Notes: generated by a model not told the origin, from the letters alone. A stretch of 64,000 nucleotides of DNA from Candidatus Niyogibacteria bacterium (GCA_016432485.1 CP066691.1:740944-804943); one strand, 5' to 3'; numbered from the stretch's first letter, positions 30,683 to 54,907 are shown. Made by a program: numbers and translations.

Positions 30683-31828
30683 GTGCCGGAAAAAAACATT
30701 GAAACTAAATCATTGGAAGAAACAGAGATAATTAAAAATCTTGAGCGTAGAGATGATTTTGAGGCCGAACGGCTTTTACGCTATCTTAATATGCCCGATT
30801 TGTCGCGCGAGGCGGACAGCCCTCTCAAGGAACTTGTTAGCCGAATTTTAAAAATTAAACGTTTATCTGATTTTGACGATATCAAAGTTCCGGAAATAGT
30901 TCCTGCCGACATCAGTTTTGATTTATTTAATTTTCCTGAAGACCATCCGGCGCGGAAACGCTCCGACACTTATTTTATTGACGATAATCATATTTTAAGA
31001 ACCCATACCACTATAATGTGGTATTACTGGCTTAATAACGAAAAAGTTAAAGCGCAAATCGCTGGGCAAAAATCCGTCGGCGCGCTTTCTTACGGAAAAG
31101 TGTACAGAAAAGACGAAATAGACCGAAACCATATGAATGTTTTTCATCAGATGGATGGCTGGTACTTGACCCCAAAAAAAGAAAAAACAATAACGGCTGA
31201 TGATTTAAAAGAGGTCTTGGTTGAAATAGCCAAAACCATTTTTGGCGCGCGCATAAAATACCGCTTTAATAAAGATGATTTTCCTTACACCAGCCCGTCA
31301 ATAGAGATGGAAATAGAGGTTGGCGGTCGTTGGGTTGAAGTTTTGGGCGCGGGAGTTGTCAGAGAAGTTGTTTTAAAAAATCTCGGAGTTGATCCCGAAG
31401 AATATAACGGCTGGGCTTTCGGTTTCGGGCTTGAACGGCTCGCGATTATCAGTATGGATTTGCCGGATATTCGGCTTTTGTGGTCCAAGGACATAAGGGT
31501 TCGGCGTCAGCTTAAACTTGGCCGAAAATTCGTTCCGGTTTCAAAATATCCGCCGATTACGCGCGACATTTCTTTTGTGGTTTCAAGCGATTTCGTGCCC
31601 AATAATTATTTTGATTTAATCCGCGATTTGGGCGGCGATTTGGTGGAAGAAGTTAAGCTGATTGATAAATATGAAAATTCCGAAAAATTCGGCGCGGGCA
31701 AAACCAGTTACACCTACCGCATAATTTATAGAGCACCCGACCGGACTTTGGTTTCGGAAGAAGTTGATAAAATCCAAGCGGAAATTTATCGCCAAACGGC
31801 GGAGCAATTTGAGGCGGAGGTGAGGTGA
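30683..31828 (+). CDS. pheS: phenylalanine--tRNA ligase alpha subunit PheS (GTG start)
   Basis: FPEDHPAR, class II motifs 2/3 (YRKDEIDRNHMNVFHQMDGW; GWAFGFGLERLAII); no pheT follows. Confidence 0.85.
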   Translation: MPEKNIETKSLEETEIIKNLERRDDFEAERLLRYLNMPDLSREADSPLKELVSRILKIKRLSDFDDIKVPEIVPADISFDLFNFPEDHPARKRSDTYFIDDNHILRTHTTIMWYYWLNNEKVKAQIAGQKSVGALSYGKVYRKDEIDRNHMNVFHQMDGWYLTPKKEKTITADDLKEVLVEIAKTIFGARIKYRFNKDDFPYTSPSIEMEIEVGGRWVEVLGAGVVREVVLKNLGVDPEEYNGWAFGFGLERLAIISMDLPDIRLLWSKDIRVRRQLKLGRKFVPVSKYPPITRDISFVVSSDFVPNNYFDLIRDLGGDLVEEVKLIDKYENSEKFGAGKTSYTYRIIYRAPDRTLVSEEVDKIQAEIYRQTAEQFEAEVR

Positions 31829-31830
31829 TG
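31790..31830 (+). repeat. direct repeat copy 1 (41 bp = last 12 codons + stop of pheS)
   Basis: cgccaaacggcggagcaatttgaggcggaggtgaggtgatg; 40/41 identical to 32895-32935. Confidence 0.85.
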
Positions 31831-31852
31831 TTGGGTGTTTTAGATTTGATTT

Positions 31853-31886
31853 AAACGGCTCAACGGCAAGTCCCGTTGAGCCGTTT
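31853..31886. repeat. palindromic hairpin aaacggctcaacgg-N6-ccgttgagccgttt (REP-like)
   Basis: same 14-15-bp arms recur at 44228-44263. Confidence 0.75.
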
Positions 31887-31920
31887 GGGTTAAGCTATTG
31901 AACCATTGCGACGGGGTTGA

Positions 31921-31983
31921 CCCACACACCCACTTTGCCATTTTTAATTTGCGCCTTGCGCTATGGCAAAGTGGGTGTGTGGG
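31921..31983. repeat. 63-bp element: perfect 21-bp inverted repeat (cccacacacccactttgccat) with 21-bp spacer, flanked by ggttga/gggttga
   Basis: lies between an 18-nt upstream motif and the -35 box of promoter P1; removal restores the spacing seen in homologous promoter P4. Confidence 0.7.
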
Positions 31984-32011
31984 TTGACAAAGCATGTTGC
32001 TGGAGTATAAT
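31984..32011 (+). promoter_or_regulatory. consensus sigma-70 promoter P1: TTGACA-16-TATAAT
   Basis: exact -35 and -10 hexamers; ~100 nt upstream of GC-rich ORF 32114. Confidence 0.6.
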
Positions 32012-32113
32012 GCAAAGGTAGTTCTTAAACATTTATGGTCCGTCTGACCCCGCATAGGGCGGGGCAAGGACGACGCCAAAATCCCGCCGTAGGGCGGAGA
32101 GGAGGACTCGGTT

Positions 32114-52738: not shown

Positions 52739-52748
52739 TAAGTGAAAC

Positions 52749-54233
52749 GTGGCACGAGAAGGAAAAATCCAGATAATAAAATATGCTCCGCCGCCGCCGG
52801 AACTTCCGGTCTATAAGCAAGTTGACCCGAAAGAGGCCGTTTTTTTCGGACGCACCAATTACGTAGCCGGACTTGAGGAAAAGCGGTTCATATTCGGTAT
52901 CAAGCGAAGAGACCGCCGGCGCCATATGTATATAATCGGAAAATCGGGCGTCGGAAAAAGCAAGCTTTTGGAATTGATGTTAAGGCAGGATATTCAATAC
53001 GGCCATGGCGTTTGCTTGATTGATCCGCATGGAGACGTCATAGAAGAGGTCTTAAAATTTATTCCTGAAGAGCGCGTTAGAGACACCATTTTAGTTGATC
53101 CGTCCGATACTGCCTGGCCGATTTCTTTTAATCCGCTACAGAATATAAATCCGGAATTGAAACATCAGGTGGCTCAAGGCCTGATTGAAGTTATGGAAAA
53201 ACAATTCGGCGCGAATTGGACCCCCAGGCTTGAGCACGTTTTTCGTTTTACTGTTCTTGCTCTTCTTGATTTTCCAATGGCGACTATGCGCGGAATGATT
53301 TCAATGCTCGTGGATCGTAAATACCGTCAAAAGGTTGTTGAGTATATTGAAGACGAAATGGTCAAGCGTTTTTGGGCGATTGAATTTGCCGATTGGTCCG
53401 AAAAATTTGATACCGAAGCGATCATTCCGCTAGTCAATAAACTCGGCCAGTTTTTGGCCAATCCTTATCTGCGCTACATTTTTGGTCAGCGCGAAAATAA
53501 AGTTGACCTTGAGCGCGCGATGAACGAGAAAAAAATTCTTTTAATCAATCTTTCAAGAGGAAGGCTTGGAGAGGAAAATTCAAGTTTTTTGGGTTCAATG
53601 TTTATCACTAAAATAAAGCAAGCCGGAATGGCGCGCGCGTCAATGTCCGAGGAAGATCGCGAAGATTTTTATCTATACGTAGATGAGTTTCATAATTTGG
53701 TTACGGCCACATTTGTTAACATTTTTTCCGAAGCCAGAAAATACGGAGTTTCTTTGACGGTGGCCCATCAGTTTTTCGGCCAGCTTATTCAGCATGTTCG
53801 CGAATCAGTAATCGGTAATGTCGGCACTATGGTTGTTTTCAGAGTCGGCGGTGACGACGCGGCGAAGCTGGAAGCGGAGATGACGCCGGTATTCAAAGCA
53901 AAAGATATGGTTAATCTCGGCACTCAGCAATTTTACATAAAAATGACTATTGACGGCGACACCTATGACCCGTTTTCCGCCGAAACTTTGAAAGTTTTAC
54001 CGCCGGTCCACAAGTCTTTCAAAGACGAAATAATTAAATTCAGCCGCGAGAATTATGCCGCTCCGGCCGAAGAAGTGAAAAGAAAAATTCTTGAAGAAGA
54101 AAACGAACTTTTGGGGCTTGCCTCCGCGCCCGGGAAAACACTCGGTGTTGAGACCTTAAAAACACCGGGTGTTGAGTGGGGCGCGGTCAAAGAATCCGCT
54201 CTTCCCGATTCACCTCCCGAACCGATAGTATAA
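52749..54233 (+). CDS. soluble TraD/TrwB/VirD4-like (AAA_10/DUF87-type) P-loop ATPase
   Basis: HMYIIGKSGVGKSKL Walker A, YLYVDEFHN Walker B, AHQ, GNVGTMVVFRV; no TM segments. Confidence 0.6.
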   Translation: MAREGKIQIIKYAPPPPELPVYKQVDPKEAVFFGRTNYVAGLEEKRFIFGIKRRDRRRHMYIIGKSGVGKSKLLELMLRQDIQYGHGVCLIDPHGDVIEEVLKFIPEERVRDTILVDPSDTAWPISFNPLQNINPELKHQVAQGLIEVMEKQFGANWTPRLEHVFRFTVLALLDFPMATMRGMISMLVDRKYRQKVVEYIEDEMVKRFWAIEFADWSEKFDTEAIIPLVNKLGQFLANPYLRYIFGQRENKVDLERAMNEKKILLINLSRGRLGEENSSFLGSMFITKIKQAGMARASMSEEDREDFYLYVDEFHNLVTATFVNIFSEARKYGVSLTVAHQFFGQLIQHVRESVIGNVGTMVVFRVGGDDAAKLEAEMTPVFKAKDMVNLGTQQFYIKMTIDGDTYDPFSAETLKVLPPVHKSFKDEIIKFSRENYAAPAEEVKRKILEEENELLGLASAPGKTLGVETLKTPGVEWGAVKESALPDSPPEPIV

Positions 54234-54344
54234 TAAATTTCCCTCTGTTCAATATGGGTAGATTGAACATTAGAGCTAAAAATCCTTATTTTAAGCCATT
54301 TTTTAGCTTTTTGGTGTTGCGAAGCTATTGAACCATTGCAAGAG

Positions 54345-54372
54345 CTTGACGAGATGCGGTGAGGTGGTATGA
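54345..54372 (+). promoter_or_regulatory. sigma-70 promoter P4: TTGACG-16-TATGAT, preceded by 18-nt motif aagctattgaaccattgc shared with P1
   Basis: near-consensus hexamers; same motif-to--35 spacing as the ancestral form inferred for P1. Confidence 0.55.
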
Positions 54373-54435
54373 TGGCAACGGTTGGGACACGGTGTCCCCG
54401 CACATTAAACTATTTTTGAGAAAAGAGGAGGAACG

Positions 54436-54858
54436 ATGGACCTGGAAAAGCTGGAAGAAGTTCTTGATCAAATTTTGGAAGCGATAGGGAATGGCGCAAA
54501 CGAAGACGTAGTGAGGGATCTGTTTGATGTCCTCTATGAAGGCGTGGTTTCAGAATATCGTCCTGTTCTGAAGGTTCTCCCGCATGTGGCTGATAAGGTT
54601 GCTGCTGATTTGGTTCCCATCATACAAGTTTTTGTCAGAATATTTAATGCTGTAGAATCAGACAAAACTTTGCAGAAGGAACTCGCTGCATATAAAAACG
54701 ACCGCGCAAAGAAGCGTTTTGCCGCTCTTAAGATTTATCAGAAAGCCGGATTTACTCGTCATGAAGCAATGCAGTTGGTATTACAAGACATTGCTAATTT
54801 TAAAGCTCTGCGACAGGAGGTATCAAAGATAAAAGGACCCACCTCCTCAAAGAAGTAG
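54436..54858 (+). CDS. hypothetical protein O4 (140 aa, all-helical prediction)
   Basis: SD gaggagga before ATG; own promoter and terminator; splits two paralogous ATPase genes. Confidence 0.55.
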   Translation: MDLEKLEEVLDQILEAIGNGANEDVVRDLFDVLYEGVVSEYRPVLKVLPHVADKVAADLVPIIQVFVRIFNAVESDKTLQKELAAYKNDRAKKRFAALKIYQKAGFTRHEAMQLVLQDIANFKALRQEVSKIKGPTSSKK

Positions 54859-54875
54859 AGAGGAAAAATTTTATT

Positions 54876-54907
54876 GCCCAACCTTTTTGGATTGGGCGAT
54901 TTTGTTT
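54876..54907 (+). terminator. intrinsic terminator (gcccaaccttttt ggattgggc + T-run)
   Basis: stem-loop followed by gattttgttt. Confidence 0.65.

What the first reader, a model, noticed from the sequence alone, without database searches (positions are those of the whole stretch)
31790..54907. Recurrent architecture: four autonomous promoter-ORF-terminator cassettes with near-consensus sigma-70 promoters scattered through a housekeeping backbone
Exact TTGACA-N16/17-TATAAT promoters are rare in any genome. This window has three exact ones and one near-exact one, each driving a compositionally atypical ORF and each closed by a strong intrinsic terminator. Each is preceded by an inverted repeat or hairpin. 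Two share promoter ancestry, and one has an integration-type 41-bp duplication. Together they look like a family of transcriptionally insulated mobile cassettes (moron-like) whose mobilisation machinery is not in the window. If this is a real class, it would be a previously undescribed cassette system in a CPR-type genome.
Basis: inference. Interest (0 to 1): 0.75.

Follow-up and report, generated by a model that had tools for sequence, protein, structure and literature searches.

The report
Orphaned DGR variable-protein genes, not cassettes
Two of the four "cassettes" are stand-alone target genes of diversity-generating retroelements, whose strong promoter, structured leader, high GC and terminator are family-wide traits; the other two are an orphan mini-gene and an ordinary resident gene, so there is no new four-member cassette system.

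Summary
The observation mostly holds. There are three exact TTGACA-N16/17-TATAAT promoters (0.02 expected by chance), one 10/12 promoter, four terminators and a 47-nt duplication of the pheS 3' end. The four units are not one family.

C1 (32114-32788) and C2 (33230-33805) belong to two protein families of Candidate Phyla Radiation bacteria. Elsewhere, members of both families sit directly upstream of a template repeat, bAvd and a reverse transcriptase, and their VR/TR mismatches fall almost only on TR adenines. They are variable-protein (target) genes of diversity-generating retroelements (DGRs).

In 80 related metagenome loci:
- The near-consensus promoter is present in 46 of 67 scorable loci, against 0 of 284 control windows.
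- A covarying 5' leader RNA that is absent from Rfam occurs in most loci.
- The gene is about 10 GC points richer than its flanks.
- A GC-rich terminator hairpin recurs.

So atypical composition is not evidence of recent transfer. The window has no RT, Avd or TR. C2 keeps only the first ~20 nt of the DGR-RNA unit, which suggests a deletion. About half of the relatives are likewise solo. Imperfect direct repeats of host gene ends flank C1 and several related islands, so insertion as units is plausible.

C3 is an ORFan. C4 is a compositionally normal conserved gene.

The parts
31784..31830 (+). Direct repeat copy 1. It is the last 14 codons plus stop of the PheRS-like gene (30683-31828) and forms the left boundary of the C1 island.
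   Evidence: The three mismatches to copy 2 are all synonymous third-position changes in the pheS frame (read from the sequence).
31853..31888 (+). REP-like hairpin with 14-bp perfect arms, just inside the island. A second copy (85% identity) lies at 44227-44268.
31892..31909 (+). 18-mer AAGCTATTGAACCATTGC upstream of the ancestral -35 box. It is identical to 54322-54339, upstream of C4.
31920..31984 (.). Perfect 22-nt-arm palindrome that looks like an insertion into the C1 -35 region. GGGTTGAC occurs on both sides (31914-31921 and 31981-31988). Its right end creates the exact TTGACA.
   Evidence: and the sequence. The comparison with C4 spacing is an inference.
31984..32011 (+). C1 promoter, TTGACA-16-TATAAT.
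32012..32113 (+). C1 5' leader. It holds an AGTTCTT box (32020-26), two small GC hairpins and a Shine-Dalgarno sequence, and is homologous to the leaders of the nearest homologues (L229, L230). It lacks the long P1 hairpin of motif R1.
32114..32788 (+). C1 ORF, 224 aa, a DGR variable-protein family member (HYY55_04350). The VR-equivalent region is about 32665-32785.
32839..32864 (+). C1 terminator hairpin (11 bp, 9 GC) followed by a T-run. It is conserved in L004, L229 and L230.
32889..32935 (+). Direct repeat copy 2, a displaced and diverged pheS 3' end that forms the right boundary of the C1 island.
   Evidence: Logan unitigs break inside it.
32993..33036 (.). 13-nt-arm inverted repeat upstream of the C2 promoter.
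33061..33089 (+). C2 promoter, TTGACA-17-TATAAT.
   Evidence: The same promoter type is found in 46 of 67 family loci.
33095..33191 (+). Conserved structured 5' leader RNA (model R1). It comprises an AGTTCTT box and a long P1 hairpin at 33117-33171. A GGGCACATGTGCCC palindrome (33201-33216) and a Shine-Dalgarno sequence follow.
   Evidence: There is no Rfam match.
33230..33805 (+). C2 ORF, 191 aa, a DGR variable-protein family member (HYY55_04355). The VR-equivalent region is about 33680-33800.
33821..33852 (+). C2 terminator hairpin CCCCGYGCC...GGCACGGGG followed by a T-run. It is conserved across the family.
33853..33878 (+). Remnant of the DGR-RNA transcription unit: TACAAT plus CGGCAGT, matching the start of the TR-bearing RNA in L154 and L139. 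Similarity stops here and gyrB starts at 33924.
   Evidence: The nhmmer hit is weak (E = 6.4), so this part rests on direct sequence comparison.
49282..49345 (.). 10-nt-arm inverted repeat upstream of the C3 promoter.
49366..49394 (+). C3 promoter, TTGACA-17-TATAAT with a TG extension.
49450..49689 (+). C3 ORF, 79 aa, GC 0.60, with a perfect Shine-Dalgarno sequence. It is an ORFan and shows no link to DGRs.
49707..49735 (+). C3 terminator (13 bp, 9 GC, T6).
54346..54373 (+). C4 promoter, TTGACG-16-TATGAT (10/12, TG extension), preceded by the shared 18-mer at 54322-54339.
54436..54858 (+). C4 ORF, 140 aa, a helical conserved hypothetical protein with ordinary GC (0.43), lying between two TrwB/VirD4-like ATPase genes.

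Best explanation
The four units are three different things.

(1) C1 and C2 are stand-alone variable-protein (target) genes of CPR-type diversity-generating retroelements (DGRs).
- Each encodes a small protein whose last ~40 codons are a variable region (VR). In related genomes this VR is rewritten by mutagenic retrohoming from a template repeat (TR) about 330 nt downstream, using a bAvd protein and a DGR reverse transcriptase (RT).
- Four features are conserved parts of this target module across CPR bacteria: the near-consensus sigma-70 promoter, the long leader (for C2 a covarying RNA structure), the GC-rich coding sequence and the GC-rich terminator hairpin. Together they presumably give strong, leader-controlled expression of a ligand-binding protein (inferred).
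- In this window the TR, avd and RT are gone. C2 retains only the first ~20 nt of the DGR-RNA unit before gyrB, so it is the stump of a complete element (inferred from sequence comparison). C1 is a target-only island bounded by a 47-nt imperfect duplication of the pheS 3' end.
- Their VRs appear frozen, although a DGR elsewhere in the genome acting in trans cannot be excluded.

(2) C3 is a lineage-specific 79-codon gene, or possibly a small RNA, under an exact consensus promoter. It has no detectable relatives.

(3) C4 is an ordinary resident gene of a TrwB/VirD4-like ATPase cluster. Its promoter shares an 18-nt upstream element with C1.
For: DGR linkage in homologues:
- Homologues of C1 (P0016, P0017) and of C2 (P0037, P0032) lie next to PF22296 bAvd and PF00078 RVT_1.
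- VR/TR pairs in those loci mismatch almost only at TR adenines: 13/14 in L002, 16/16 in L009 and 19/19 in L011.
- Of 30 C2-family metagenome loci with at least 2.4 kb downstream, 13 have such a TR and 17 are solo.
- Many solo loci keep remnants of the conserved DGR-RNA 5' region, of varying length. The window keeps TACAATGAAAACGGCAGT.

Module hallmarks across the family:
- Promoter score is at least 11/12 in 46 of 67 loci (21 exact), against 0 of 284 control windows.
- The leader hairpin has 21 predicted pairs, 18 of them with compensatory changes. Covariance model R1 hits the window only at 33095-33191 (79.8 bits). It also hits the C1-family DGR locus L001/L002 (42.5 bits) and about 58 of the 80 metagenome loci.
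- Gene GC exceeds flank GC in 42 of 43 loci, by +0.10 on average. The RT is not GC-rich.

Evidence in the window itself:
- The window's VRs mismatch heterologous TRs at 41-62% of TR-A sites but only 16-21% of other sites.
- tblastn finds no RT or Avd in the window. blastn and nhmmer find no TR or DGR RNA apart from the VR itself.
- The exact C1 and C2 proteins recur in at least 17 and at least 12 sequencing runs with identical VRs.

C3 and C4:
- C3 matches only itself among 5.8 billion proteins and has no Rfam match.
- C4 has GC 0.43 and belongs to a family with 122 representative clusters.
Against: - Only 64 kb of an ~837-kb contig could be examined. My single genome-collection scan for a cognate TR was wasted on a pattern that was too unspecific. 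An RT and TR acting in trans elsewhere in this genome therefore remain possible.
- The DGR-RNA remnant after C2 is short, and the nhmmer hit to it is not significant (E = 6.4).
- The identity of VRs across samples comes from look-ups by exact protein sequence. Such look-ups cannot see variant alleles, so they are weak evidence for a frozen VR.
- What the leader RNA does, and why the genes are GC-rich, is not explained.
Confidence: 0.8

Rival explanations
1. C1 and C2 are active remote targets. A DGR (RT, Avd and one or two TRs) elsewhere in the ~0.84-Mb genome diversifies them in trans, as is known for Treponema, Legionella and cyanobacterial DGRs.
For: - Non-adjacent and remote targets are documented (PMC5758913, PMC8144416).
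- Both genes are intact, strongly promoted, and keep the VR scaffold and downstream hairpin.
- About half of the family is solo, which could mean that trans-acting systems are common.
Against: - The two VRs are unrelated in sequence, so two different TRs would be needed.
- Solo relatives show progressive truncation of the adjacent DGR RNA, which points to decay.
- VRs are identical in every run where the exact protein was found, although this evidence is weak.
Confidence: 0.25
2. One reading: all four units are members of one new family of autonomous, transcriptionally insulated mobile cassettes (moron-like), moved by a recombinase or phage encoded elsewhere.
For: - Three exact consensus promoters and four terminators are present.
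- A direct repeat flanks C1, and similar repeats flank related islands in 6 of 56 loci against 0 of 56 controls.
- Several related modules lie next to tRNA genes.
- C1 and C4 share an 18-mer.
Against: - C1 to C4 share no protein similarity, and no leader similarity: model R1 hits only C2.
- C4 has ordinary composition and a conserved gene-cluster context.
- C3 has no relatives, so no family can be shown.
- There are no convincing PHROG hits (best E 0.0025 for C4, none for C1 or C2), and only 4 IMG/VR contigs carry a C2 relative and none a C1 relative.
- No flanking repeats were found for C2, C3 or C4.
- High GC is family-intrinsic, not a sign of recent import.
Confidence: 0.08
3. The GC-rich ORFs are assembly contamination or chimeric joins from a co-assembled high-GC organism.
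For: There are local GC jumps (0.56 in 32001-33000 against 0.44 for the window). Logan unitigs break at the direct repeat.
Against: - The breaks coincide with the 35-nt exact repeat, which is longer than the assembler's k-mer.
- Unitig L013 runs from inside direct repeat copy 2 (32906) through C2 into gyrB (to 34971) with 100% identity to the window.
- Homologues are GC-rich inside low-GC CPR contigs everywhere.
- Promoters, leaders and Shine-Dalgarno sequences are of the CPR family type.
Confidence: 0.02

Closest known systems
DGR variable (target) proteins of CPR bacteria (DGR clade 2 of Roux et al. 2021; the 'CPR set' with unclassified VR classes of Wu et al. 2018)
   Same: - C1 and C2 are sequence homologues (48-58% identity) of proteins that lie directly upstream of TR-avd-RT with adenine-specific VR/TR mismatches.
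- The VR sits at the extreme C-terminus.
- The proteins are small and carry no Pfam domain.
- The C2 model resembles a C-type-lectin fold.
   Different: - No TR, Avd or RT lies beside them or anywhere in the 64 kb.
- The two papers I searched (PMC5758913, PMC8144416) do not contain the word 'promoter'. They do not describe the structured leader, the target-specific GC excess or the decayed solo copies.
Non-adjacent or remote DGR targets (for example Treponema denticola, cyanobacterial lineage 4)
   Same: They are target-type genes located away from any RT.
   Different: Remote targets share a VR that matches the one TR of their DGR. Here the two VRs are unrelated to each other, no TR is known, and C2 carries a stump of its own former DGR-RNA unit.
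Phage morons and other promoter-ORF-terminator insertions
   Same: Each is an autonomous transcription unit (own promoter and terminator) with atypical composition, inserted between housekeeping genes. C1 is bounded by a repeat.
   Different: There is no prophage context. The composition bias is a conserved property of the gene family rather than a donor signature. The function is tied to a retroelement.
Integrative islands that insert into the 3' ends of tRNA or protein genes and duplicate the gene end (attL/attR)
   Same: - The 47-nt imperfect repeat reproduces the pheS 3' end.
- Its mismatches are confined to the 5' part of the distal copy, as expected for a crossover within an identical core.
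- Related modules abut tRNA 3' ends or are flanked by duplicated ends of other genes (L230, L190, L216, L012, L144).
   Different: No integrase is present. The repeats differ from locus to locus. The islands are only 1-3 kb. The mechanism is unknown; homologous recombination of an excised circle is one possibility (an inference).

Membership tests
DGR variable-protein (target) gene | Homology to proteins encoded immediately next to a DGR reverse transcriptase and accessory Avd | tested here: met
   C1 family: L001-L004. C2 family: L009-L011 and 9 or more metagenome loci. All have bAvd plus RVT_1.
DGR variable-protein (target) gene | A C-terminal VR paired with a TR whose differences fall on TR adenines | tested here: inconclusive
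   - Met in the homologues (27 loci).
- In the window no TR exists, and the rest of the genome could not be searched (one search failed).
- Indirect support: the window VRs mismatch heterologous TRs 2.5-3 times more often at TR-A sites.
DGR variable-protein (target) gene | A cognate RT (DGR clade) and Avd in the same genome | tested here: not met
   tblastn with 4 RTs and 4 Avds against the 64-kb window gave a best E of 0.16. This covers the window only; the whole genome is not testable with the remaining tools.
DGR variable-protein (target) gene | The VR is displayed on a C-type-lectin (or Ig) fold | tested here: inconclusive
- C1 model: pLDDT 82, no Foldseek PDB hit.
DGR variable-protein (target) gene | A GC-rich hairpin or cruciform downstream of the VR | tested here: met
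   Hairpins lie at 32839-32864 and 33821-33852 and are conserved in relatives. They sit ~35-50 nt after the VR and carry T-runs, so they may simply be terminators.
   Met for C1 (47 nt) and for 6 of 56 related loci against 0 of 56 controls. Not found for C2, C3 or C4.
   There is no protein similarity. The leader model hits C2 only. C4 composition is ordinary. Only an 18-mer links C1 and C4.
Logan unitigs only show breaks at the repeat.
Phage moron | Location in a prophage, or homology to phage proteins | tested here: not met
   - There are no convincing PHROG hits (best E 0.0025 for C4, none for C1 or C2).
- The neighbours are pheS, gyrB, secDF and other housekeeping genes.
- Only 4 IMG/VR contigs carry a C2 relative, and none carries a C1 relative.
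Known Rfam RNA family (for the leaders and the C3 transcript) | A covariance-model match | tested here: not met
   The gathering-threshold scan of the window found only 6 tRNAs. E-value scans of 31800-33950 and 49280-49840 found only hairpin noise.

The most novel reading that the evidence does not exclude
CPR DGR target genes form a self-contained expression module: a consensus promoter, a conserved and covarying ~110-160-nt leader RNA that is absent from Rfam, a GC-enriched ORF and a terminator. The leader would be a new cis-regulatory RNA that gates production of the hypervariable protein. DGR islands, whether complete or reduced to the target, would spread between related genomes as 1-3-kb units. 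They would integrate at the 3' ends of tRNA or housekeeping genes through short homology to a carried copy of that gene end, leaving imperfect direct repeats whose differences are synonymous.
Probability: 0.3. Interest if true: 0.6.

Novelty: new member of a known kind. Interest (0 to 1): 0.4.

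Why it matters
It replaces a speculative "new cassette system" with a concrete identity. Two strongly promoted, GC-rich genes between pheS and gyrB are leftovers of diversity-generating retroelements, the hypermutation machines that are unusually common in CPR bacteria.

It also shows that an exact consensus promoter plus atypical GC is a recognisable signature of this gene class rather than of recent horizontal transfer. 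That is useful for annotating the many "hypothetical" CPR genes.

Three by-products may deserve follow-up by DGR or RNA specialists. None is mentioned in the two DGR surveys I searched.
- A covarying leader RNA upstream of DGR targets.
- Frequent decay of DGRs to solo targets.
- Gene-end duplications flanking the islands.

Tried and rejected
- Pfam and PHROG scans of the four ORFs gave nothing significant.
- BLASTP of C1 against C2 showed no similarity.
- Rfam scans, at gathering and E-value thresholds, found only tRNAs and palindrome noise such as miRNA-precursor models on the 22-nt inverted repeat.
- I spent the single genome-contig scan on the A-free VR end CCCGCGGCTCTGCGCG, hoping to find this MAG's TR. 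Nothing can be concluded from it.
- Foldseek of the C1 model against the PDB gave no match.
- I asked whether C3 is a TR, a DGR remnant or a known RNA:
  - Internal blastn found no match.
  - tblastx against DGR loci gave only marginal hits (E about 0.02).
  - The nhmmer DGR-RNA profile did not hit C3.
  - The folding z-score of -2.7 is largely due to the terminator.
  - I rejected any DGR link.
- I asked whether the AAGCTATTG upstream element is a general left end of the modules. It occurs only in the window (C1, C4) and upstream of the L012 promoter, so I rejected it as a family feature.
- I asked whether sequences upstream of the -35 box are conserved in the family. They are not; the module starts at the -35 box.
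- A profile of the C4 family against PDB sequences found nothing.

Full report
**Origin of the window.** The window comes from a Candidatus Niyogibacteria (CPR/Patescibacteria) MAG. The two GC-rich ORFs are annotated HYY55_04350 and HYY55_04355, on a contig of 836,981 bp.

**Observation: what holds.**
- Three exact TTGACA-N16/17-TATAAT sites exist at 31984, 33061 and 49366 on the + strand. Chance expectation is 0.02 per window.
- The fourth promoter (54346) is TTGACG-16-TATGAT with a TG extension, i.e. 10/12.
- Each promoter is followed by a Shine-Dalgarno sequence, an ORF (32114-32788, 33230-33805, 49450-49689, 54436-54858) and a hairpin with a T-run.
- Inverted repeats precede the promoters. 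They are strong for C1 to C3 and weak for C4.
- The duplication is 47 nt (44/47 identical, 35-nt exact core) at 31784-31830 and 32889-32935. The first copy is the in-frame 3' end of a PheRS-like gene.
- C1 and C4 share an exact 18-mer just upstream of a TTGAC.

**Observation: two corrections.**
- C4 is not compositionally atypical. Its GC is 0.43 and its GC3 is 0.40. C1 to C3 have GC3 of 0.65-0.74, and backbone genes 0.42-0.51.
- 11/12 promoters also precede secE-nusG, a glycosyltransferase gene and the tRNA-Ser region.

**What C1 and C2 are.**
- Neither protein has a Pfam or PHROG match, and they are not similar to each other.
- Homology searches give 28 relatives for C1 and more than 553 for C2. 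All are ~190-235-aa hypothetical proteins, and those that carry a source name are mostly from CPR bacteria.
- The genomic context of relatives is decisive. P0016 and P0017 (C1 family) and P0037 and P0032 (C2 family) lie immediately upstream of a bAvd gene (PF22296) and an RVT_1 reverse transcriptase.
- In these loci the last ~120 nt of the gene is repeated ~330-450 nt downstream. The mismatches are almost exclusively adenines in the downstream copy: 13/14 in L002, 16/16 in L009 and 19/19 in L011.
- That pattern is the VR/TR signature of diversity-generating retroelements. C1 and C2 therefore belong to two families of DGR variable proteins.
- The protein alignments place the hypervariable columns in the last ~40 residues.
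- The C1 model (pLDDT 81.7) has no Foldseek match in the PDB.
- Against heterologous TRs, the window's VRs mismatch at 41-62% of TR-adenine sites but only 16-21% of other sites. This is the footprint expected of past adenine mutagenesis.

**The 'cassette' architecture is a family trait.** I fetched 80 C2-family loci from metagenomes.
- Promoter: of 67 loci with enough upstream sequence, 21 have an exact 12/12 promoter and 25 an 11/12 promoter. These lie ~105-250 nt before the ATG, mostly ~125-200 nt. None of 284 random 260-nt windows from the same loci reaches 11/12. Sequence conservation begins at the -35 box, and nothing upstream of it is conserved.
- Leader box: many leaders contain an AGTTCTTTGA-like box. 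A strict regular expression for it matched only 12 of 67 loci, but the box forms the conserved 5' end of the leader alignment.
- Leader hairpin: the leaders also contain a long hairpin with 21 predicted pairs, 18 of which show compensatory double changes.
- Leader model: a covariance model of this region hits the window only at 33095-33191 (79.8 bits). It hits a C1-family DGR locus (L001/L002, 42.5 bits) and about 58 of the 80 metagenome loci, always between promoter and target. The one exception is a second, convergent copy in L216. Rfam 15 has no match.
- C1 leader: C1's own leader lacks the long hairpin. It is homologous to the leaders of its nearest relatives, L229 and L230.
- Composition: the target genes are GC-richer than their flanks in 42 of 43 loci, by +0.10 on average. 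Host GC in these loci ranges from 0.29 to 0.55. Within complete elements, mean GC is 0.52 for the non-VR part of the target, 0.63 for the VR, 0.54 for the TR, 0.405 for the RT and 0.46 for the flanks. High GC is therefore a property of the target gene itself. It does not indicate a foreign donor or contamination.

**Where the retroelement went.**
- The window contains no RT or Avd (tblastn best E 0.16).
- It contains no TR or DGR RNA. The nhmmer profile finds only the C2 VR itself.
- Solo targets are common. 17 of 30 C2-family loci with at least 2.4 kb downstream lack a TR. So do the nearest C1 relatives, in L229, L230 and L006-8.
- In complete elements a conserved ~230-nt region precedes the TR. 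It is preceded by a TAYAAT box just after the target's terminator.
- Solo loci retain this region to very different extents, from nearly all of it to nothing. This looks like decay by deletion.
- After the C2 terminator the window reads ...GGCACGGGGATTTTTAATACAATGAAAACGGCAGT. This matches L154 and L139 through the -10 box and the first bases of the DGR RNA. Similarity then stops 45 nt before gyrB.
- I infer that C2 is the stump of a complete DGR.
- C1 ends the same way. Its homology with L229 and L230 stops at the point where the second repeat copy begins.
- The exact C1 and C2 proteins, VR included, recur in at least 17 and at least 12 sequencing runs. This is compatible with frozen VRs. The evidence is weak, because exact-sequence look-ups cannot see variant alleles.

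**Is anything mobile?**
- C1 occupies a 1,105-bp island between two copies of the pheS 3' end. The three mismatches lie in the 5' part of the distal copy, and all are synonymous third-position changes in the pheS frame.
- This is the pattern expected if a circle carrying a foreign pheS end recombined within the identical 35-nt core (an inference).
- A systematic search found imperfect repeats of 22-46 nt flanking the target-only or complete island in 6 of 56 loci (window, L230, L012, L216, L190, L144). Mismatched control pairs gave 0 of 56. L165 and L160 add two more cases.
- In L230 the repeat is again the 3' end of the upstream gene. In L190 and L165 the differences again have codon periodicity.
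- Several modules begin 8-30 nt after a tRNA 3' end.
The repeats differ from locus to locus, no recombinase is evident, and I could not test for empty sites.

**C3 and C4.**
- C3 has a perfect Shine-Dalgarno sequence, a 79-codon GC-rich ORF and a strong terminator. Its only match among 5.8 billion proteins is itself, and that entry's only listed source is Logan, not NCBI.
- C3 has no Rfam match, no similarity to DGR parts, and a modest folding z-score of -2.7. It remains a lineage-specific gene or small RNA of unknown role.
- C4 belongs to a conserved family of ~140-aa helical proteins (122 representative clusters) with no Pfam or PDB relative.
- C4 has ordinary composition. It sits between two TrwB/VirD4-like ATPase genes, next to DUF8128. 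It is a resident gene with its own promoter.

**Comparison with the literature.**
- DGRs are known to abound in CPR bacteria. Their targets are mostly unannotated and their VR classes unclassified. CPR DGRs are reported to have a single adjacent target as a rule (PMC5758913). Metagenome surveys explicitly miss targets that are not next to an RT (PMC8144416).
- Neither paper contains the word 'promoter'. Neither describes a leader RNA, a target-specific GC excess or decayed solo copies.
- The main object is therefore a new member of a known kind. The module features listed above are possibly unreported details.

**Verdict.**
- The unifying interpretation is not supported. Two units are orphaned DGR targets, one is an ORFan and one is an ordinary gene.
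- Interest is moderate. It rests mainly on the conserved leader RNA and on the repeat-bounded, decaying DGR islands.

Noticed in passing
window 31914-31988: A perfect palindrome (22-nt arms, 21-nt loop) sits inside the C1 promoter region, with GGGTTGAC on both sides. By comparison with C4, the ancestral -35 box was TTGACC at 31917. The insert regenerates an exact TTGACA at its right end. It looks like a tiny MITE-like insertion. No other copy exists in the window.
   Followed up: partly
window 31853-31888 and 44227-44268: A REP-like hairpin AAACGGCTCAACGG...CCGTTGAGCCGTTT occurs twice at 85% identity. One copy follows pheS (inside the C1 island). The other lies between the 152-aa ORF (43731-44189) and the ABC-transporter gene.
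   Followed up: no
window 37188-37227 and 37400-37439: A 40-nt direct repeat (98% identity) duplicates the nusG 5' UTR and start codon. It brackets a 172-nt insert between secE and nusG that has a GC-rich core and a 67-codon ORF with no Pfam hit. This is another small repeat-bounded insertion at a gene boundary.
   Followed up: no
window 30683-31828: The phenylalanyl-tRNA synthetase gene is a single-chain type: a class II core (tRNA-synt_2d) fused to an FDX-ACB anticodon-binding domain. This is the architecture typical of mitochondrial PheRS rather than the bacterial alpha2-beta2 enzyme.
   Followed up: no
related loci, e.g. L139 3700-3918, L154 3660-3891, L004 3790-4033: In complete CPR DGRs a conserved ~230-nt region (GGCAGTAGGTGAATACGCGGGCGGTTACGGCTTCCCGCTACCGAA...GAAGATACTTGGTG...) lies directly 5' of the TR. 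It is preceded by a TAYAAT box just after the target's terminator. It is probably the structured 5' part of the DGR RNA. avd lies on the opposite strand between the TR and the RT.
   Followed up: partly
L216 2695-5783: A 46-nt repeat-bounded island holds two convergent leader-plus-target modules. Model R1 hits at 2818-2920 (+) and 5050-5151 (-).
   Followed up: no
L146, L187, L211, L163, L176 (upstream of the -35 box): C2-family modules start 8-30 nt after sequences that look like the 3' end of a tRNA gene (GGTTCRAATCC T-loop motifs). This is a classic integration hot spot.
   Followed up: no
window 49836-58298: This is a gene cluster with several unusual members:
- a Sigma70_r4 plus HARE-HTH protein;
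- DUF8128;
- two TrwB/VirD4-like coupling ATPases, one with a treble-clef zinc finger;
- a Lamin-tail/PKD surface protein.
It may be a CPR type-IV-secretion or DNA-uptake-like module. C3 and C4 sit at its edge and inside it.
   Followed up: no
L012 3772-3806 versus window 31892-31922: The upstream promoter element AAGCTATTG-N9-GC-N6-TTGACC of C1 and C4 also precedes a repeat-bounded solo C2-family gene in an unrelated contig. It is absent from the other ~85 loci.
   Followed up: partly
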